From: Escherichia coli
GTDB taxonomy: Bacteria; Pseudomonadota; Gammaproteobacteria; Enterobacterales; Enterobacteriaceae
Strand: one strand, 5' to 3'
Length of the DNA stretch: 64,000 bases
NCBI RefSeq assembly: GCF_030013205.1
Contig: NZ_CP122649.1
Positions 11,188-53,835 of this stretch are shown piece by piece. The notes beneath the pieces were generated by a model. That model was not told the DNA's origin and made no database searches. It saw only the letters and a program-made list of their open reading frames with translations. Made by a program: the position numbers and the translations under genes. Position 1 is the stretch's first letter. Each line of letters opens with the position of its first letter.

Positions 11188-12439
11188 ATGGCGGCGGACA
11201 CCCCACGGATTCCAGAACAAGGCGTGGCCACTCTGCCTGATGAGGCTTGGGAGCGTGCGCGCCGTCGTGCGGAGATCATCAGTCCGTTGGCGCAGTCGGA
11301 GACGGTCGGGCACGAAGCGGCCGATATGGCGGCTCAGGCGCTGGGCTTGTCTCGGCGCCAGGTATACGTTCTGATCCGGCGTGCCCGGCAAGGCAGCGGC
11401 CTCGTGACGGATCTGGTGCCCGGCCAGTCCGGTGGAGGTAAAGGTAAGGGGCGCTTGCCGGAACCGGTCGAGCGCGTCATCCACGAGCTACTGCAAAAGC
11501 GGTTCCTGACCAAGCAGAAGCGCAGCCTAGCGGCCTTTCACCGCGAAGTCACTCAGGTGTGCAAGGCTCAAAAACTGCGAGTGCCGGCGCGCAATACCGT
11601 GGCCTTACGGATCGCTAGCCTTGACCCGCGCAAGGTCATCCGCCGGCGGGAAGGCCAGGATGCCGCTCGTGACCTACAAGGTGTGGGCGGCGAGCCTCCT
11701 GCCGTGACCGCGCCGCTGGAGCAGGTGCAGATAGACCATACGGTCATCGACCTGATCGTGGTCGATGACCGCGACCGGCAACCTATTGGCCGCCCGTACC
11801 TGACCCTCGCCATCGACGTGTTCACCCGCTGCGTGCTCGGCATGGTCGTCACGCTGGAAGCGCCGTCTGCCGTTTCGGTTGGCCTGTGCCTCGTGCATGT
11901 CGCCTGCGACAAGCGCCCTTGGCTGGAAGGACTGAACGTGGAAATGGATTGGCAGATGAGCGGCAAGCCCTTGCTGCTCTACCTAGACAACGCGGCCGAG
12001 TTCAAGAGCGAGGCCCTGCGCCGGGGTTGCGAGCAGCATGGCATCCGGCTGGACTATCGCCCGCTGGGACAGCCGCACTATGGCGGCATCGTGGAACGGA
12101 TCATCGGCACGGCGATGCAGATGATTCACGACGAACTGCCGGGAACGACCTTCTCCAACCCTGACCAGCGCGGCGACTACGATTCCGAAAACAAGGCCGC
12201 CCTGACGCTGCGCGAGCTAGAGCGCTGGCTCACATTGGCGGTCGGCACCTACCACGGTTCGGTGCACAACGGCCTGCTCCAACCGCCGGCCGCGCGCTGG
12301 GCCGAGGCCGTGGCGCGTGTCGGCGTACCGGCCGTCGTCACACGCGCTACTTCGTTCCTGGTCGATTTTCTGCCGATCCTCCGGCGCACGCTGACCCGCA
12401 CCGGCTTTGTCATCGACCACATCCACTACTACGCCGATG
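11188..12439 (+). pseudogene. tniA: tniA (Tn402/Tn5053-family transposase), 3' end truncated by IS26
   Basis: MAADTPRIPEQGVATLPDEAWERARRRAEIISPLAQ...; frame runs into the IS26 terminal repeat at 12440. Confidence 0.85.
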
Positions 12440-30205: not shown

Positions 30206-30210
30206 AACGC

Positions 30211-30245
30211 AAGCAGGCAGAGAAATATCTCTGCCTGCTTTCTCC
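30211..30245 (+). terminator. rho-independent terminator after tcuC
   Basis: Perfect stem AAGCAGGCAGAG / CTCTGCCTGCTT followed by TCTCC. Confidence 0.7.
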
Positions 30246-40204: not shown

Positions 40205-40450
40205 AAAAGTAACTTTTCCACACCCTCCATACAACCAAAGCCTCTGATGCGCTATAGCCTAGGCACTAAAGCATCAGTCGATTCAGAAAAGTTACTTTTC
40301 TCTCAATTTTCATTTTGAACAGAAGAAATGCACATTTTCTTAGTGTGCCGGGTGACCTGTATTTGGTGAGGAAATTTGAATCAGGGTGATGCAAGCAAAA
40401 AAAGACCGTACTCAAAAGAGAGTACGGCCTTTATCAGCTACTACTTACTT

Positions 40451-47511: not shown

Positions 47512-48030
47512 CTAATCTAACTCTTCCTGGGAATACCGTGCTATTGCCGATGACGTGGACGACAATCTGCATCGAGGACAATGAGTATCATTGGTATACG
47601 GGACAATATAAGGGCGCTTACATTTCGCACAAGTTTCAAGCTCCTCGATTTCTTTCATTGACGTTAGAATCTCAATGATTTTATTTACCTCAGGAGCGCA
47701 GACGAAATATCCAAGGTTATGCAGCACACTCATGATGCGGTTGAAGTCAATATTTCGAAAACTGGATTCCGGGTGAATAGGATCAAAACCGAAATAGTTT
47801 ACAGCGACATCAATAACCGCAGAAAAAGCCCTGCGGTTATCCGTGCGGCGACTCCACCCACGAATCCCTTTTTTAAAGTTTTGTTGAGGTTCAGACCTGA
47901 AGTCTATATTTTCGGCAACATGATTTCCATAGAGTATCCTTATGGAATTTTTATTGGCACCAAGAGACATCGTTTTTGTAGCGCTCAATAACATGTTAGC
48001 TTTAGTTTGATCGACTTTAGCCATATTCAA
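47512..48030 (-). CDS. hypothetical protein with C-terminal CxxC-x(n)-CxxC zinc ribbon, possible transfer regulator
   Basis: 172 aa; CAKCKRPYIVPYTNDTHCPRC; 4-bp overlap with the upstream gene, next to oriT. Confidence 0.55.
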   Translation of the reverse strand: MNMAKVDQTKANMLLSATKTMSLGANKNSIRILYGNHVAENIDFRSEPQQNFKKGIRGWSRRTDNRRAFSAVIDVAVNYFGFDPIHPESSFRNIDFNRIMSVLHNLGYFVCAPEVNKIIEILTSMKEIEELETCAKCKRPYIVPYTNDTHCPRCRLSSTSSAIARYSQEELD

Positions 48031-48854
48031 TAATCCTTCAAGAGCACTTTATTTGCCAAAGTATTGAACACATCCTGACGGTGGCATGTAAACATAGTGT
48101 CGTAACGCAGTAATTCCATTAAATCGTCACTAATTTTACCCAAACGAATATCGGCAGATATTTCGTATGCCCAAGCAAATACCTTTGATTTTAGCGTAGC
48201 ACTGTCATCCCCCAGACCTGGCGTAAAGGGAATTGTTCGTGGAAAGAGAACGACATCATTAATTAATTTAAGTGATGACATCCCGACATCTTTTATTGCT
48301 TCAACGGTGGCAGGTTTTAATCCAAAAAAGATACTAACAAACTCAGGTGCAAGCATTGACATAAAGAAAACTTGCATTAAGTAATCATTTTGAATGTCTA
48401 CACACTTAGAACGTAGTTGCTGAATTTTTCTCGGATTATAAAATTCCTCCTGCCCGCTGAGCAAAGTTACTTTTTCACCTTCATTGTAAATGCCGAAGTC
48501 AGTATCTTCACTGTCATATTCTCGAATGACGTTAGTGTCGCCATCAACTACAGCTACAAAGAATTTGTCCCAAGAGATCTCTTTACTTAAAGAACGAGGA
48601 ACGAGGAAGCTTCCTGGCCGAGTTTCAACTTCAAATGCATTATCAATCATAGCTCCAAATCCATTACCAAATAGTCGGCGTTGGAGGAGTGGTGATCCAG
48701 TTTGATACTTAGAAGATCCATGAAGAGGCAATAACATTAAGAAGGCACGGTAACTACGAATAATCGAAATCTCGGTACGTAATAGTTTACCGAGTAAATT
48801 ACGCGTGATGTTATCTGATTCTGACATGTGCGGATTGTCCTTGCGCCAATACAA
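48027..48854 (-). CDS. hypothetical protein, 275 aa, first gene leftward of oriT (possible transfer regulator)
   Basis: Track ORF; the 15-bp palindrome lies about 47 bp upstream of its start. Confidence 0.55.
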   Translation of the reverse strand: MYWRKDNPHMSESDNITRNLLGKLLRTEISIIRSYRAFLMLLPLHGSSKYQTGSPLLQRRLFGNGFGAMIDNAFEVETRPGSFLVPRSLSKEISWDKFFVAVVDGDTNVIREYDSEDTDFGIYNEGEKVTLLSGQEEFYNPRKIQQLRSKCVDIQNDYLMQVFFMSMLAPEFVSIFFGLKPATVEAIKDVGMSSLKLINDVVLFPRTIPFTPGLGDDSATLKSKVFAWAYEISADIRLGKISDDLMELLRYDTMFTCHRQDVFNTLANKVLLKDY

Positions 48855-48900: not shown

Positions 48901-48915
48901 GAAAAGTAACTTTTG
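48901..48915. repeat. 15-bp palindrome GAAAAGTAACTTTTG (recurrent transfer-region motif)
   Basis: 7-1-7 inverted repeat; one of about 10 copies between 35.6 and 60.6 kb. Confidence 0.7.
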
Positions 48916-49154
48916 GAATTTTAATACTGCCGCTTTGAACCTTAAAACTAACCTTTCAGCCATTACCCTTACTTGTAACACTTTTTAACCAAACTAACCA
49001 GAATTTTATCAAAAAACCCTGACCTTGCTAACGAAATGTGAACCGTATAAAAAAACCTCAAAGCCTGAGTCGTTATCGGCATTAAGTAGCAATAACCTTA
49101 GGGAAAAATGCGCGTAAGCATGATTATTTTTTCGATTGTTTAACATGACTACTA

Positions 49155-49318
49155 CATAGGGTCACTTTTTGCTGAAAAGTGGCCCTATGCACCATCGACA
49201 TAGGGTCACTTCTTGATGAAAAGTGACCCTATGTAATCACGACATAGGGTCACTTTTTTTAAAAGTGGCACTATGCGTCAAAATCATAGGGTCACTTTCC
49301 TTTAAAAAGTGGCACTAG
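49155..49318. repeat. four tandem 42-44-bp units, each a 33-35-bp palindrome (CATAGGGTCACTT-N-AAGTGRCCCTATG); putative oriT / relaxosome or regulator binding array
   Basis: Units at about 49155-49189, 49199-49233, 49243-49275 and 49285-49318 between divergent transfer operons. Confidence 0.75.
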
Positions 49319-49385
49319 ATAGATGTATAACTTAGTAGGTAAAACAGTTCTTTTCAGATCACGATCTCAGCAATAAGCATTGCTG

Positions 49386-49400
49386 GAAAAGTTACTTTTC
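49386..49400. repeat. 15-bp palindrome GAAAAGTTACTTTTC (recurrent transfer-region motif)
   Basis: Perfect 7-1-7 inverted repeat about 185 bp upstream of the first gene of the relaxase operon. Confidence 0.7.
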
Positions 49401-49584: not shown

Positions 49585-50070
49585 ATGTCTAAATCGAAGC
49601 TATTAAAGTCATTGGAGATTTCACGTACTTTATTGCGCTCACAAATCGATGTTCTTCGAGAAGAGGCTGAAGAACTGATCACCAATTATTGGATCGAGTG
49701 GAAAGAACGGAATCACATTGAGAGGAATTTACCCAGGGATAGCAAAACTCTAAAGAAGGAGTATCTGGGTTCATATGCACCAAAAGTTGAGCTAATTGGT
49801 AATGCCAGGAAAGTCACCATTACCTGGCATCAGTTTAGCCCGTATAAAAACAGGCCACCTAGTCACATGTCGAAACGGATTTCACCGATGAAAAGTGGAA
49901 AATATACGAAAAGCTGCTTTGTTAATCATGCCAGCTGGGAATATGAAATGATTGAAAAAACGGAGGGATTACTGGAACCCTACAGAGAATTACTTGAGTT
50001 CTACCATGCTGCATATATCGAACTGGGACGAAAAGTCCGTCAATACTCAAAATCAGAGGTGGCACAATGA
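49585..50070 (+). CDS. hypothetical protein, 161 aa, first gene of relaxase operon (possible relaxosome accessory protein)
   Basis: Track ORF with GGAGG RBS; 4-bp overlap with the next ORF. Confidence 0.55.
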   Translation: MSKSKLLKSLEISRTLLRSQIDVLREEAEELITNYWIEWKERNHIERNLPRDSKTLKKEYLGSYAPKVELIGNARKVTITWHQFSPYKNRPPSHMSKRISPMKSGKYTKSCFVNHASWEYEMIEKTEGLLEPYRELLEFYHAAYIELGRKVRQYSKSEVAQ

Positions 50071-50789
50071 CCGATGTAACAATGAATGAAAGCGAGCATA
50101 AGGTACCTGACGTAAATACCCGCTCCCCTCATGCGTCCGATAATAGCCGTAGGGTCGTGCAAAGTAAAAATGAACATTACGGCATGGCTACAGTAACTAT
50201 TACCCCAGGCACGCCAGACTTTAACCGATTTCTCACGGCACGTAATCGTTCCGTAATAAGAGGGTTTGATGATGTCAGTATTGCCATTTCATCCTTATTC
50301 AGAACGGTCAATGCAGTTAAGCACCCCGAACTAGTGCAGGCAATTCAAGACTGGTTCAATGAATTGCACGAAGAAAATAATCTAATGAAGAACAATCTGG
50401 AGCGCCACATTGCCACCATCCATATCGATGAAAGCGATCCGTTCTTCTCATCAACTGAGTTTTCACCGTTCAGATTTGAACCTGTACAGTTAAACTTCAA
50501 CAATCAAAACACGATGCGCTTTTATAAGCACATCTTTGAAATGAACAACCTTCTGACACAGATGCACAAATTCAACTCTCTGGGTCAATTACCGGTTAGC
50601 GATTACAACGTTATGGCCCACAATATTATCCGGAGCCTTAATATGTATATCGAACGGGTCAAGAAAACACTTAACGTTTCCCGCCGCGCAAAAGGTGCTT
50701 ACAGTCCTGATGAGTTCATCGAAAAGGTAAAGCAGTATAAAAGCGTGCAAGCATATATTGCTGCGGAACTGTCTGGTAAACGCCGGTAA
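50067..50789 (+). CDS. hypothetical protein, 240 aa
   Basis: Track ORF, translationally coupled to the upstream gene; ends just before the relaxase start. Confidence 0.5.
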   Translation: MTDVTMNESEHKVPDVNTRSPHASDNSRRVVQSKNEHYGMATVTITPGTPDFNRFLTARNRSVIRGFDDVSIAISSLFRTVNAVKHPELVQAIQDWFNELHEENNLMKNNLERHIATIHIDESDPFFSSTEFSPFRFEPVQLNFNNQNTMRFYKHIFEMNNLLTQMHKFNSLGQLPVSDYNVMAHNIIRSLNMYIERVKKTLNVSRRAKGAYSPDEFIEKVKQYKSVQAYIAAELSGKRR

Positions 50790-50799
50790 GGATTATTTG

Positions 50800-53700
50800 A
50801 TGAATTTCAGGGCACTCTTCTTAAGTATGCAACGAGTTTTTGGCATTTTCTCCAGAAGGGAGAATGATGTATCTGAGTTAATGATGAAGGATGCAGCGAA
50901 CTTCTCGCCATTTGCTCAGATTATAGGAGAGCAGAAATACACTGTGCCGGACCACCCGAATCCTGAAGTCCTGAAATTCATTGAATACCCAACCAGGCCT
51001 GCGGGGATACAGACATTTAATGAGCAGTCTATTCTTTCGTTGTACAGAGACAAGCTGCACTCTATTTCTATGATGCTGGCAATAAGTGATGGAGACATTC
51101 GGGAGGATGCCTATACCTTCACTAATCTGGTGTTAAAACCATTGATTGAATACATCCGCTGGATTCATTTACTTCCTGCGTCAGAGAATCATCACCATAA
51201 TGGTATTGGAGGATTGTTGTCTCACAGCCTGGAAGTGGCGATGATCTCTTTAAAAAATGCCAATCACTCTGAATTACGTCCGATTGGCTATCAGGATGAA
51301 GAAGTGGTTCGCCGAAAAGTTTATCTGTATGCCGCTTTTATCTGCGGCCTAGTACATGATGCAGGGAAGGTATATGACCTTGATATAGTTAGTCTCAACT
51401 TGAGTGAAACATTAACATGGGCGCCAAGCTCGCAAAGCCTTCTTGACTGGGCACGAGAAAACAATGTTGTTGAATATGAAATACATTGGCGAAAACGTAT
51501 TCATAACCAACATAATATATGGTCCAGCGTATTTCTTGAGAGGATTTTAGATCCTGTCTGTATGTCATTCCTTGACCGAGTCAAAAAGGAGCGTGTCTAT
51601 GCAAAAATGGTTACGGCACTTAATGTCTATAACGACGGCAATGACTTTTTATCAAAATGTGTAAGAACTTCTGATTATTACTCTACAGGTACTGATCTTA
51701 ATGTGTTGAGGGACCCGATAATGGGTCTTCGTTCGAATGATGCTGCGGCTAGGGCAATAGGTACCATTAAGCATAACTTTACTAGCATTAATATTAATAA
51801 CTATAAAACTAAACCCATGCACATCATTATTGTAAACGGTGAAGTTTACCTCAATGAAAACGCCTTTCTCGACTTTGTACTGAGTGATTTTGCAGCCCAT
51901 AAGTTCAACTTCCCGCAGGGAGATGCAGGCAAAACAGTACTTGTCGAATCTCTGGTGCAACGGGGTTATGTTGAACCTTACGACGATGAACGTGTGGTTC
52001 ATTACTTTATTCCCGGGACATATTCGGAAAATGAAATTGCAAGCATCTTCCGGAACGGTATTGGTAAGCTGGAATTTTATAACCTCTTAAAACTGCGTTG
52101 GATCGGGTTAATTTTTGATTCATATAAAATCCCGGATTCAGTTCCTGGTCTGTTCAGCGTTAATGCGAATAAAGATTTCATCTATATTGATGAGCAGAAA
52201 ACTGTAACGGAATACAGAAGGCCGGTCCCGGGTCGTGAGTCTGTTACCAGAGTAACGGACACTGTCAATGACGCCATTGAGAATACCCCACAGTATGGAC
52301 TTCAGCTCGTAAACGGCCCTGATGCCGACAGTAACAATATTATTAGCAGTGAAAATACTGAATCCATTACGGATAGTTTGGAAGAGTCTGGCGCGGATAT
52401 CTCAAACGAGATTTTTGAAACGCAAGTTGTTACGGCAATTGATACTGCCGAAACGGTAAACGCGGATGAGCCAGAACAGGTAGAAGAGCATGACGACCGG
52501 AGCCAGATTTATCTGGTTGAACAACTTCATGAAATGCTGTTGAGCGCCCCACTGCCCCATCATGCCGTCATTAATATTGATTCCGTACCTTACCTGGATC
52601 TCGATGCTGCGATTGCGTTAATCCCGGGTATAGATGAGGCGGCATTTTGTAATGGGCCATTTTTCCAGTTGACATACCGTGATGGGTCTCTAGATGGTAT
52701 GTGGATAGTCCGTGATGTAAACAATCTACGCCTGATACAGCTGGGGGATAACTGCGCCGGTATGCAAGTAAGCACATCGGAACCACGAAACACGTCATCG
52801 CTGAAATCACTATTTGATACGTCAATGTACCAACCGTTGGATATCCCTGAAGCTCCATCAGTAAACGAAGCTGCTTCGCCTCCACAAACACCGCTTGAAC
52901 TCCCCCAACCACGACTGAATGCACCTGTGGCTGAAGAGGCCAGCTCGGTAGCTGAACAGACTAACGCCCACTCCGAACCGGATTCCGTCATCGCTACTGA
53001 GTATGAGCAATATGGTCATTTGCTGGAAGAGACCCTTGATAGCGATGGTGAGGCATATTCTGATTTAATTGCCTCTGACAGTACTGAGGCAGAATACCCC
53101 GCCACTGATCCGCAGAGCAGCGATTTTGCCCAATTACCTCGTGAAACGGCCCTGTCCGTTGCGCCCGGTGATTTGGATTACTCAGAGGGTGCCATTAAGC
53201 CACCAGCACCCGATGCAACCGGAAAAGAAACAATACTAACAAGTCCTGAACCAGCAGAGGATGTCCGAGAAACGGTAGCCGCCGTGGAGAAAGCGAGTCA
53301 TCTTTCTCCGGCATTGGCTCGACTCTTTGCTGTAAGCACCCATGCTGAGAAGAAGCATGAAAAAACGCAGGAACCCTCCCCTGTTAAAGAGGTTAAAAAT
53401 CCAACCTCCTCTACCACAGTTAAGGCTCCTATTTCCATTGAACCACCAGGCGCTGAAGAGAAAGAGGCGGTGGAAGAATTCACCCTGTTAAACGACGGTG
53501 AAGTCACAGAACTCGAATATGTCGAGATTGCCACCATGCTCCACCAAATTCTGACGAAGTTATCTGGGTCGTTCAAAAGAAAGAGGAAAAACCGGTTCAT
53601 GGTTTTGACCCAGAACACCTTTTATCTGACGCAGTCATGTATTGAAAAGTACGGAACGCAGCTAAATGCGCCTGAGCTTTTTAACCAACTTCCTCAGTAC

Positions 53701-53835
53701 CAGGTCACATCCGGTGCCGTAGTCAATACAAAATGCATTGCATTCAACATACCAACTCTGGTCGCCGCATCAGACCGGGCAAAGGTCGATATTGAGTTAA
53801 TTATTAACAAGCTAAAAGAGGTCGGGAATCTGTAA
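50800..53835 (+). CDS. traI: MOBH-family conjugative relaxase (HD-domain type), TraI-like
   Basis: HD-like signature HHHNGIGGLLSHSLEVA; start chosen at MNFRALF (1011 aa); long acidic, Pro-rich linker in the C-terminal half. Confidence 0.7.
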   Translation: MNFRALFLSMQRVFGIFSRRENDVSELMMKDAANFSPFAQIIGEQKYTVPDHPNPEVLKFIEYPTRPAGIQTFNEQSILSLYRDKLHSISMMLAISDGDIREDAYTFTNLVLKPLIEYIRWIHLLPASENHHHNGIGGLLSHSLEVAMISLKNANHSELRPIGYQDEEVVRRKVYLYAAFICGLVHDAGKVYDLDIVSLNLSETLTWAPSSQSLLDWARENNVVEYEIHWRKRIHNQHNIWSSVFLERILDPVCMSFLDRVKKERVYAKMVTALNVYNDGNDFLSKCVRTSDYYSTGTDLNVLRDPIMGLRSNDAAARAIGTIKHNFTSININNYKTKPMHIIIVNGEVYLNENAFLDFVLSDFAAHKFNFPQGDAGKTVLVESLVQRGYVEPYDDERVVHYFIPGTYSENEIASIFRNGIGKLEFYNLLKLRWIGLIFDSYKIPDSVPGLFSVNANKDFIYIDEQKTVTEYRRPVPGRESVTRVTDTVNDAIENTPQYGLQLVNGPDADSNNIISSENTESITDSLEESGADISNEIFETQVVTAIDTAETVNADEPEQVEEHDDRSQIYLVEQLHEMLLSAPLPHHAVINIDSVPYLDLDAAIALIPGIDEAAFCNGPFFQLTYRDGSLDGMWIVRDVNNLRLIQLGDNCAGMQVSTSEPRNTSSLKSLFDTSMYQPLDIPEAPSVNEAASPPQTPLELPQPRLNAPVAEEASSVAEQTNAHSEPDSVIATEYEQYGHLLEETLDSDGEAYSDLIASDSTEAEYPATDPQSSDFAQLPRETALSVAPGDLDYSEGAIKPPAPDATGKETILTSPEPAEDVRETVAAVEKASHLSPALARLFAVSTHAEKKHEKTQEPSPVKEVKNPTSSTTVKAPISIEPPGAEEKEAVEEFTLLNDGEVTELEYVEIATMLHQILTKLSGSFKRKRKNRFMVLTQNTFYLTQSCIEKYGTQLNAPELFNQLPQYQVTSGAVVNTKCIAFNIPTLVAASDRAKVDIELIINKLKEVGNL

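What the first reader, a model, noticed from the sequence alone, without database searches (positions are those of the whole stretch)
49155..49318. Tandem array of four long palindromes in the oriT-like intergenic region
Four units spaced about 44 bp apart each contain a 33-35-bp near-perfect palindrome with 13-bp arms (CATAGGGTCACTT ... AAGTGACCCTATG) and variable 7-9-bp centres. They lie between the divergent operons at 48854 and 49585. The spacing is close to four helical turns, suggesting cooperative same-face binding by a dimeric protein at the origin of transfer or a shared operator.
Basis: partly seen in the sequence, partly recalled or inferred. Interest (0 to 1): 0.55.

Follow-up and report, generated by a model that had tools for sequence, protein, structure and literature searches.

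The report
Palindrome array in R27 transfer origin
Four long palindromes sit in the known transfer-origin region of the resistance plasmid R27, are conserved across the IncHI plasmid family, and are most likely docking sites for a plasmid protein that helps start DNA transfer or switches the transfer genes on.

Summary
Window 49155-49319 holds four 33-35-bp palindromes starting 44, 44 and 42 bp apart. They can equally be read as eight copies of CATAGGGTCACTT in alternating orientation every 22 bp. This is far beyond chance, and the half-site occurs nowhere else in R27.

The window is plasmid R27 (IncHI1). The array lies between trhR and traH, the intergenic region to which later papers say Lawley et al. 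(2002) mapped oriT.

Every related lineage I fetched with the region intact has the same architecture upstream of its mobI/traH gene (IncHI2, two unnamed lineages, Klebsiella IncHI1B-type). Half-sites are about 95% conserved between IncHI1 and IncHI2, while spacers are about 37%. In more distant lineages all copies change together (CATAGTGTTAC, CAYAGTGTAAC, CATTAGTAC). That pattern points to a co-evolving, sequence-specific DNA-binding protein.

The best-conserved 15-mer of the whole intergenic region, TAGATAGATGTATAA, abuts unit 4 and is my nic-site candidate.

Best reading: a relaxosome assembly platform at oriT. The binder is unresolved. TraH is a MobI-family protein, the genetic oriT-specificity factor in IncC. 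R0121, the next gene, is predicted to have the fold of the IncC activator AcaB. A regulatory or dual role is therefore a serious rival.

This is an ordinary kind of element in a known locus.

The parts
49155..49189 (.). Palindrome unit 1: CATAGGGTCACTT / AAGTGGCCCTATG, 9-nt centre
   Evidence: One arm mismatch, which is a T.G wobble on the + strand.
49199..49233 (.). Palindrome unit 2: perfect 13-nt arms, 9-nt centre
   Evidence: (I9). Both arms are unchanged in the three other lineages that share R27's half-site (L002, L003, L005, plus the near-duplicate L010).
49243..49275 (.). Palindrome unit 3: right arm AAGTGGCACTATG (2 mismatches), 7-nt centre
   Evidence: (I12). R27, L002 and L003 share the same right arm; L005 differs at one base.
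49285..49319 (.). Palindrome unit 4: perfect left arm, degenerate right arm AAGTGGCACTAGA (4 mismatches) that merges into the conserved block
49316..49335 (.). Conserved non-repeat block TAGATAGATGTATAACTTAG abutting unit 4. Candidate relaxase recognition or nic region (inferred).
   Evidence: 49316-49330 ties for the best-conserved 15-mer of the 730-bp intergenic region across 7 lineages (pairwise identity 0.93). The Klebsiella-type lineage keeps TATGTATAAG at the equivalent place. It has a weak resemblance (AGATAGAT) to the repeated element of the IncC core oriT.
49387..49399 (.). Small palindrome AAAAGTTACTTTT, 192 bp before the traH ATG. A different motif from the array.
   Evidence: (D2/I4). 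It sits 192 bp before the ATG in four lineages and 202 bp in L013. It is one of about 37 copies dispersed over R27.
48902..48914 (.). Small palindrome AAAAGTAACTTTT, about 80 bp upstream of the trhR ATG
49003..49031 (-). Promoter-like site for trhR-trhY (TTAGCA-17-TAAAAT with TG), 124 bp from the array edge
   Evidence: Conserved at the same distance in R27, L002, L003 and L005. This is a consensus match only.
48027..48827 (-). trhR (R0123). With trhY (47512-48030) it encodes the activators of the transfer operons.
   Evidence: The role is taken from PMC7366339. No Pfam match.
49585..50070 (+). traH (R0122), a MobI-family protein. Candidate reader of the array.
   Evidence: Pfam MobI PF19456, 1e-21. 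Described as MobI-like and required for transfer. AF2 model pLDDT 93.9: a helical hairpin plus a small sheet, with only generic coiled-coil matches.
50067..50789 (+). R0121, a protein predicted to have the AcaB fold. Second candidate reader.
50800..53835 (+). traI, a MOBH-family relaxase
   Evidence: NCBIfam NF041494 MobH, 1.2e-72. Annotation.

Best explanation
The array is the double-stranded protein-binding platform of the R27 origin of transfer.

Each palindrome is one dyad-symmetric site: two 13-15-bp half-sites whose centres lie 22 bp, about two turns, apart. The four sites in tandem are occupied, probably cooperatively, by a plasmid-encoded accessory protein. My first choice for that protein is TraH, the MobI-family factor encoded just downstream.

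The resulting nucleoprotein complex positions the MOBH relaxase TraI on the adjoining conserved block TAGATAGATGTATAA. I infer that nicking occurs there. In this model the palindromes give each IncHI lineage its oriT specificity, and the adjoining block is the common relaxase substrate.

Because the array lies between the divergent trhRY and traH-traI operons, occupancy may also affect their transcription.

**Shown:** the array, its uniqueness, its conservation pattern, its concerted change between lineages, and the gene context.

**From the literature:** oriT maps to this intergenic region, and MobI proteins determine oriT specificity in relatives.

**Inferred:** the binder's identity, cooperativity, the nic position, and any regulatory effect.
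For: 1. **Identity and location.** The window is R27. The array lies between trhR and traH, with the MOBH relaxase and the coupling protein downstream. Later papers say the R27 oriT was mapped to this intergenic region and call TraH a MobI-like mobilisation factor.
2. **Precedent in relatives.** In IncC, SXT and MGIVchHai6, oriT lies upstream of mobI, and MobI confers oriT specificity.
3. **Uniqueness.** The half-site occurs only here in the 180-kb plasmid. That fits an origin-specific site and not the box of a general regulator.
4. **Phylogenetic footprint.** Between IncHI1 and IncHI2, half-sites are 0.95 identical, against 0.37 for spacers, 0.55 for centres and 0.58 for the rest of the region.
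5. **Concerted change.** All copies change together in lineages whose TraH is 55-56% or 31-39% identical, and the architecture is kept. Loops and spacers are not homogenised, so this is selection on the half-site and not repeat conversion.
6. **Adjoining conserved block.** The most conserved unique sequence of the region abuts unit 4. The TraI relaxase domain is also the most conserved of the linked proteins: 73/67/49% against 55/56/37% for TraH. This fits a conserved relaxase site next to diverging specificity sites.
7. **Decayed plasmids.** One has lost exactly two units and another has lost the array to an IS5 insertion.
Against: - No binding, nicking or mobilisation data exist for the array itself, and I could not read the 2002 mapping paper.
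- The TraH model shows no recognisable DNA-binding fold. MobI's role in oriT recognition is genetic, not biochemical.
- R0121, the next gene, has the AcaB fold, and AcaB is a DNA-binding transcriptional activator. It could be the real reader, with a regulatory purpose.
- In IncC the oriT lies within about 185 bp of mobI. Here the array is 266-430 bp upstream.
- All linked proteins diverge together, so co-variation does not single out a binder.
- In the one biochemically studied MOBH relaxase (gonococcal TraI), a single hairpin is needed, and its structure matters, not its sequence.
Confidence: 0.5

Rival explanations
1. The array is a transcriptional operator or upstream activating sequence for R0121, the AcaB-like protein.

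In this model R0121, made from the TrhRY-activated H operon, binds the four palindromes and activates (or represses) the trhR-trhY promoter, and possibly the traH promoter. That closes a positive feedback loop like the AcaB-AcaCD loop of IncC. The position inside the oriT region would be incidental, or would couple the regulatory switch to transfer.
For: - AcaB activates the promoter of the master activator genes acaDC and is itself AcaCD-dependent.
- TrhR and TrhY are the R27 master activators, and the H operon is under their control.
- The array lies upstream of a conserved promoter-like site pointing at trhR.
- Ribbon-helix-helix proteins commonly bind arrays of repeats (general knowledge).
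- The region upstream of acr1-acaDC in IncC also carries long palindromes with 12-13-nt arms.
Against: - The AcaB similarity is at fold level only (9% identity, no profile hit) and rests on a medium-confidence model built from 16 sequences.
- I do not know the AcaB binding site, because the Hancock 2020 paper is not held.
- The array starts 124 bp upstream of the -35-like hexamer and extends about 165 bp further. That is far for a simple activator or repressor.
- The IncC upstream region has no fourfold tandem array.
- From my memory of the abstract of Lawley 2002, only four H-operon genes were needed for transfer, which may exclude R0121. This is unverified.
- This reading does not exclude an oriT role. 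F-plasmid TraY and TraM do both.
Confidence: 0.27
2. The palindromes act as hairpins in single-stranded DNA, not as duplex sites.

They would form on the transferred strand, or after local melting, and be recognised by the MOBH relaxase TraI for cleavage or termination, as with the gonococcal TraI hairpin. Alternatively they would serve as single-strand signals in the recipient for priming or early transcription.
For: - Both strands fold into four stable hairpins: + strand -46.8 kcal/mol, z -10.3; - strand -38.3 kcal/mol, z -7.5.
- Arm mismatches are more often T.G or G.T wobbles on the + strand than on the - strand. My rough count is about 10 events against 3.
- The only characterised MOBH relaxase needs an inverted repeat next to nic.
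- Unit 4 abuts the most conserved block of the region.
Against: - If only structure mattered, each unit could drift on its own. Instead all eight arms keep one sequence per lineage, and several imperfect arms recur across related lineages without being compensated.
- Four copies are not needed for a relaxase hairpin.
- The wobble bias rests on few, non-independent events.
- There is no Rfam or terminator signal.
Confidence: 0.13
3. The array is a maintenance element: a centromere-like site (compare the 43-bp repeats of F sopC), iterons of a replication origin, or a recombination site.
For: The architecture resembles sopC: tandem repeats of about 44 bp, each holding an inverted repeat (general knowledge).
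Against: - No partition, replication or recombinase gene is adjacent. The par and rep genes of R27 lie elsewhere.
- In every lineage fetched with the region intact, the array travels with trhR, mobI and the MOBH relaxase.
Confidence: 0.03

Closest known systems
oriT of IncC/IncA plasmids and SXT/R391 elements (MOBH1 relaxase plus MobI)
   Same: - A MobI-family gene with oriT in the intergenic region upstream of it, and a MOBH relaxase.
- Repeated motifs in both orientations. In pVAS19 there are four copies of CCAGATAGATAG in alternating orientation.
- An AT-rich region with many inverted and direct repeats.
   Different: - No sequence similarity apart from an AGATAGAT 8-mer.
- The IncC repeats are shorter and irregularly spaced, and 14-bp direct repeats next to mobI are essential.
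- R27 has a regular 22/44-bp lattice of long palindromes 266-430 bp from the gene.
- R27 has the relaxase in the same operon. In IncC it is tens of kb away.
Relaxosome accessory-protein site arrays of F-like and IncW plasmids (TraM at sbmA-C, TraY at sbyA, TrwA at sbaA/B)
   Same: Several phased, sequence-specific sites inside oriT that recruit or stimulate the relaxase and also regulate nearby tra promoters. The readers are ribbon-helix-helix proteins, and F TraY carries two such modules in one chain (general knowledge). The R0121 model also shows two strand-helix-helix modules.
   Different: - The proteins are unrelated in sequence.
- The half-sites here are much longer (13-15 bp) and sit 22 bp apart.
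- No binding has been shown.
- The relaxase family (MOBH, HD-domain type) and possibly the nicking geometry differ.
AcaB and the acr1-acaDC promoter of IncC plasmids
   Same: - R0121 is predicted to share the AcaB fold.
- A master-activator operon (trhRY here, acaDC there) has long palindromes upstream.
- Mutual activation is plausible, because the H operon is TrhRY-dependent.
   Different: - No detectable sequence similarity.
- acaB is near traN and far from oriT. R0121 sits between mobI and the relaxase gene.
- IncC has no fourfold tandem array.
oriT of the gonococcal genetic island (MOBH2 TraI)
   Same: The same relaxase superfamily. An inverted repeat next to nic is required.
   Different: A single repeat, whose structure and not its sequence matters, and no MobI-type factor. 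Here there are four sequence-conserved repeats.
F plasmid sopC centromere
   Same: Tandem units of about 43-44 bp, each containing an inverted repeat bound by a dimer (general knowledge).
   Different: No partition genes are adjacent. Four units against twelve, and much longer arms.

Membership tests
Origin of transfer (oriT) of a conjugative plasmid | A cis-acting fragment is mobilised in trans by the cognate transfer system | not testable with these tools
   Later papers cite Lawley 2002 for oriT lying next to traH in R27. The primary paper is not held, so I do not know whether the array itself is required.
Origin of transfer (oriT) of a conjugative plasmid | Contains the nic site cleaved by the relaxase | not testable with these tools
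   There is only a candidate: the conserved block 49316-49335 abutting unit 4.
Origin of transfer (oriT) of a conjugative plasmid | Lies next to the relaxase and accessory genes, in a non-coding, repeat-rich stretch | tested here: met
   A 730-bp intergenic region between trhR and traH-R0121-traI-traG. It has many inverted and direct repeats. GC is 0.35-0.40, against up to 0.45 in the flanking genes.
MobI-dependent oriT of MOBH1 elements (IncC, SXT/R391, MGIVchHai6) | A MobI-family gene immediately downstream of the oriT region | tested here: met
   TraH matches Pfam MobI at 1e-21. The array ends 266 bp before its ATG.
MobI-dependent oriT of MOBH1 elements (IncC, SXT/R391, MGIVchHai6) | A MOBH-family relaxase encoded by the element | tested here: met
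   NF041494 MobH, 1.2e-72, 244.8 bits against a cut-off of 200.
MobI-dependent oriT of MOBH1 elements (IncC, SXT/R391, MGIVchHai6) | Sequence similarity to the IncC or SXT oriT core | tested here: not met
   Only an AGATAGAT 8-mer is shared with the R55 core oriT. R27 belongs to the separate MOBH11 branch.
Accessory-protein binding array of a relaxosome (F sbm/sby, R388 sba type) | Repeated, sequence-specific sites under purifying selection inside oriT | tested here: met
   Half-sites are 0.85-0.97 identical against 0.37-0.56 for spacers. All copies change together between lineages.
Accessory-protein binding array of a relaxosome (F sbm/sby, R388 sba type) | Bound by a relaxosome accessory protein that stimulates nicking or transfer | not testable with these tools
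   The candidates are TraH and R0121. There are no binding data.
Operator of an AcaB-type activator | An AcaB-family protein is encoded by the element | tested here: inconclusive
   [not shown]
Operator of an AcaB-type activator | The site lies upstream of the promoter of the master-activator operon and controls it | tested here: inconclusive
   The array starts 124 bp upstream of a conserved promoter-like site for trhR. No expression data bear on the array.
MOBH relaxase hairpin substrate (gonococcal TraI type) | A single inverted repeat adjacent to nic, where structure and not sequence is required | tested here: inconclusive
   Stable hairpins are predicted. However, the arm sequence is conserved within lineages, imperfections recur without compensation, and there are four copies.
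Partition centromere or replication iterons | Adjacent par or rep genes | tested here: not met
   The neighbours are transfer genes only. The par and rep genes lie elsewhere in R27.

The most novel reading that the evidence does not exclude
The array is a dual-purpose switch. The same four palindromes are read by an AcaB-like double ribbon-helix-helix protein (R0121) to drive the trhRY master-activator operon, and they also serve, with the MobI-family protein TraH, to load the HD-domain relaxase on the adjacent nic block.

In IncHI plasmids the origin of transfer would then double as the enhancer of the conjugation on-switch. It would also mean that the readers recognise unusually long half-sites spaced two helical turns apart. 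TraH has a prefoldin-like helical hairpin with no known DNA-binding fold.
Probability: 0.15. Interest if true: 0.6.

Novelty: new member of a known kind. Interest (0 to 1): 0.4.

Why it matters
IncHI1 and IncHI2 plasmids carry typhoid multidrug resistance, mcr-1 and other resistance genes. The homologous region is found in more than 1,400 sequenced plasmids.

How MOBH1-type relaxosomes recognise their origin is still not understood biochemically. MobI is known only as a genetic specificity factor.

This array offers a clean, testable substrate:
- Eight near-identical long half-sites.
- Natural specificity variants in sister lineages.
- A conserved candidate nic block next to them.
- Two candidate readers encoded immediately downstream.

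If R0121 proves to be an AcaB-type regulator acting here, it would extend the IncC AcaB-AcaCD feedback logic to the temperature-controlled IncHI transfer circuit (TrhR/TrhY-HtdA).

As a class of element, repeats in an oriT, it is ordinary.

Tried and rejected
- **RNA element.** No Rfam family came near threshold; the hits were chance matches to miRNA-hairpin and sRNA models. No terminator-like sites were found.
- **Promoter abutting the array** (49151-49123, minus strand). It is present only in R27 and not conserved, so I dropped it in favour of the conserved site at 49031-49003.
- **Fold assignment for TraH.** The model is very confident, but only generic coiled-coil or prefoldin-like matches came back, and there was no PDB sequence match. 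No inference about DNA binding is possible.
- **Co-variation to identify the binder.** TraH, R0121, TrhR and TrhY all diverge in step, so this does not discriminate.
- **Compensatory changes around the small palindrome at 49393**, as a sign of a nic-proximal hairpin. This looked promising, but it does not hold in an ungapped register outside one lineage.
- **Strand bias of wobble mismatches.** The bias is suggestive only: few events, and they are not independent.
- **Genome-collection scan for more MobI loci.** It gave only three loci. Diversity came from protein searches and contig look-ups instead.
- **Comparison with the IncC region upstream of acr1.** Long palindromes are present but no tandem array, and the AcaB site is unknown to me.
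- **Primary papers.** Lawley 2002, Ceccarelli 2008, Sherburne 2000 and Hancock 2020 are not in the held library. Whether the 2002 paper already drew these repeats could not be checked. No held paper contains the half-site sequence in this context.
- **Centromere or iteron reading.** Rejected on gene context.

Full report
**What is there**

Window 49155-49319 contains four palindromes of 33-35 bp. Each has 13-nt arms of consensus CATAGGGTCACTT / AAGTGACCCTATG, extendable to 15-16 nt through the T/A runs. The centres are 7-9 nt, and 9-nt spacers separate the units. Units start at 49155, 49199, 49243 and 49285. Tandem Repeats Finder reports a 44-bp period, 3.8 copies and a score of 156-168.

Unit 2 is perfect. 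Unit 1 has one arm mismatch, unit 3 has two, and unit 4 has four. The right arm of unit 4 runs into a conserved non-repeat block. The array can also be described as eight half-sites that alternate in orientation every 22 bp (steps 22, 22, 22, 22, 20, 22).

**Is it more than chance?**

- The half-site with up to two mismatches occurs seven times in 64 kb, all in the array. The shuffle mean is 1.18, and no shuffle out of 100 reaches seven.
- Palindromes with 13-nt arms and at most one mismatch give 18 raw hits (7 distinct, 4 of them in the array). Twenty simulated windows give 0-2.
- In the remaining 117 kb of the plasmid there is no further copy.

**Where it is**

The window is 100% identical over this region to plasmid R27 of Salmonella Typhi (NC_002305.1, IncHI1).

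- To the left, on the minus strand, are trhR and trhY.
- To the right, on the plus strand, are traH, R0121, the relaxase traI and the coupling-protein gene.
- traI matches the NCBIfam MobH relaxase model at 1.2e-72.
- TraH matches Pfam MobI at 1e-21.

Later papers state that oriT of R27 lies in this intergenic region, next to traH, citing Lawley et al. 2002. They describe TraH as a MobI-like mobilisation factor, and TrhR/TrhY as activators of the F, H, AC and Z transfer operons. I could not read the 2002 paper. I therefore do not know which part of the region was cloned or whether these repeats were drawn there. The RefSeq records I looked at annotate nothing under the array.

**Comparative evidence**

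The homologous region occurs in more than 1,400 plasmid records. I compared R27 with these groups:

| Group | Loci | TraH identity to R27 |
|---|---|---|
| Two IncHI1-like sublineages | L002, L003 | 82-83% |
| IncHI2 | L005, L010 | 76% |
| Two unnamed lineages from sequencing-run assemblies | L013, L014 | 55-56% |
| Klebsiella-type IncHI1B group | L007-L009, L011, L012, L016, L017 | 31-39% |

Every lineage with an intact region has three or four long palindromes at the same place. The right end of the array lies roughly 260-300 bp before the mobI/traH start.

In a seven-lineage alignment, mean pairwise identity differs sharply by class:

| Class | All 7 lineages | IncHI1 vs IncHI2 |
|---|---|---|
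| Half-sites | 0.85 | 0.95 |
| Centres | 0.61 | 0.55 |
| Spacers | 0.40 | 0.37 |
| Rest of intergenic region | 0.55 | 0.58 |

In the more distant lineages the half-site differs, but it is the same in all copies of a lineage:

- R27 and IncHI2: CATAGGGTCAC
- L013: CATAGTGTTAC
- L014: CAYAGTGTAAC
- Klebsiella group: CATTAGTAC

Loops and spacers are not homogenised, so this is not simple repeat conversion. It is what a co-evolving sequence-specific reader would produce.

In the Klebsiella group the spacing between units changes (45, 56 bp) while the palindromes stay intact. The palindrome is therefore the functional unit, not the tail-to-tail pairing. Two decayed plasmids have lost exactly two units (88 bp), or have lost the whole array to an IS5 insertion.

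**The neighbouring conserved block**

The best-conserved 15-mer of the whole intergenic region is TAGATAGATGTATAA (49316-49330, pairwise identity 0.93), tied with one other window. It lies directly against unit 4. The Klebsiella group keeps TATGTATAAG at the equivalent position.

The relaxase domain of TraI is the most conserved of the linked proteins: 73, 67 and 49% identity to R27 in L013, L014 and L007. TraH scores 55, 56 and 37%, and TrhR and R0121 are similar or lower. A conserved relaxase facing a conserved block, beside diverging specificity sites, is a coherent picture, but it is inference.

There is a weak resemblance (AGATAGAT) to the repeated element CCAGATAGATAG in the experimentally defined core oriT of IncC plasmid R55. 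The same element occurs four times in alternating orientation in pVAS19. I do not rely on it.

**Who reads the array?**

There are two candidates, and sequence analysis cannot decide between them.

- **TraH** belongs to the MobI family. In IncC plasmids and MGIVchHai6, genetics shows that MobI determines which oriT is used. Its predicted structure is very confident (pLDDT 93.9): a long helical hairpin with a small sheet. It matches only generic coiled coils and prefoldin-like proteins, so no known DNA-binding fold is evident.

AcaB is described as a ribbon-helix-helix-like activator of the promoter of the master-activator genes acaDC. It is itself AcaCD-dependent, which forms a positive loop. 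By analogy, R0121 could bind upstream of trhRY.

A promoter-like site pointing at trhR (TTAGCA-17-TAAAAT, 49031-49003) is conserved 124 bp from the array edge in four lineages. That is rather far for a simple operator, but possible for an upstream activating array. No sigma-70-like site was found on the traH side, which is consistent with an activator-dependent promoter.

**Single-strand reading**

Both strands fold into four stable hairpins (z -10.3 and -7.5). Arm mismatches are more often G.T wobbles on the plus strand. The one characterised MOBH relaxase needs a hairpin next to nic, and there the structure matters and not the sequence.

Against a purely structural role:
- All arms in a lineage share one sequence.
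- Several imperfect arms recur across related lineages without being compensated.
- There are four copies.

**Conclusion**

The array is real and under selection, and it is almost certainly a set of sequence-specific protein-binding sites. My confidence in that part is about 0.85.

My best reading is that it is the accessory-protein platform of the R27 oriT, placed beside the nic region (0.5). The main rival is an operator for the AcaB-like R0121 controlling the divergent operons (0.27). The two are not exclusive, and F-plasmid TraM and TraY do both.

The hairpin reading gets 0.13, and maintenance functions about 0.03.

The kind of element is well known and the locus was mapped as oriT in 2002. 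What appears new, as far as I could check, is:
- the family-wide conservation,
- the lineage-specific half-site variants,
- the candidate nic block,
- the AcaB-like fold of R0121.

Noticed in passing
window 35670, 40205, 40287, 45824, 48462, 48902, 49387, 54123, 55853; R27 record coordinates listed: A 13-bp palindrome, AAAAGTWACTTTT, is strongly over-represented. It occurs 9 times in the window at up to 1 mismatch, against 0.11 expected, and 28 more times in the rest of R27, about 37 per 180 kb. By my reading of the annotation tables, about half the copies outside the window are intergenic, often 60-300 bp upstream of a gene start. Two copies flank the big-palindrome array at fixed distances from traH and trhR, and the core is kept in all IncHI-like lineages. 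It looks like the box of a plasmid-wide regulator, perhaps the TrhR/TrhY-HtdA circuit, which affects most R27 genes. No held paper contains the motif in this context.
   Followed up: partly
[not shown]
   Followed up: partly
window 49316-49335: The block TAGATAGATGTATAACTTAG, directly after unit 4, contains one of the two best-conserved 15-mers of the trhR-traH intergenic region across seven lineages. It is a candidate nic or relaxase recognition sequence. The strand and exact position are unknown.
   Followed up: partly
window 48974-48988 and 49028-49042: Two further well-conserved blocks lie left of the array: TGTAACACTTTTTAA (pairwise identity 0.93) and CTAACGAAATGTGAA (0.83). The first resembles a lone half-site of the L014 type (GTAAC..CTTTT). 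The second overlaps the -35-like hexamer of the candidate trhR promoter.
   Followed up: no
L004 1528-1607 (CP099028.1) and L006 1914-2093 (NZ_AP027589.1): Two decayed, non-conjugative IncHI1B-typed plasmids have damaged arrays. One lacks exactly two units (88 bp), probably through recombination between units. The other has an IS5-family element in place of the array and of trhR.
   Followed up: partly
window 47512-48030 (-), TrhY residues about 130-160: TrhY ends with a CxxC...CxxC cluster (CAKCKRPY...CPRC). This is reminiscent of the zinc site of FlhC-type activators such as AcaC and SetC, but no Pfam or NCBIfam model matches it.
   Followed up: no
L022 689-1161 (pVAS19) and L021 90-330 (R55, IncC): In MOBH12 plasmids the oriT region upstream of mobI carries CCAGATAGATAG-type repeats in alternating orientation. 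There are four copies in pVAS19, followed by GGATAGGAATTGG direct repeats. This is a looser analogue of the R27 lattice.
   Followed up: partly
L024 1796-1819 and 2201-2227 (R55, upstream of acr1-acaDC): There is a perfect 24-bp palindrome CAAACTTTCACATGTGAAAGTTTG, with a partial copy 81 bp away. A 27-bp palindrome TAACTTTGTTCCG-T-CGGTACAAAGTTA is also present. The second shares GTAACTTT with the small dispersed R27 palindrome. Either could be the AcaB site, but I could not check.
   Followed up: no
window 11740-11772, 30209-30242, 40401-40432: These are the only other long near-perfect palindromes in the window (13-nt arms, at most 1 mismatch). The one at 40401-40432 lies just beyond the 3' end of the large trhG-like gene and may be a terminator stem.
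   Followed up: no
window end (about 64000) versus NC_002305.1: My linear coordinate map from the window to the R27 record (R27 position = 157734 minus window position) fits around the array. It conflicts at the far end of the window, so the window and the record differ by an indel or rearrangement somewhere between. I did not locate it.
   Followed up: no
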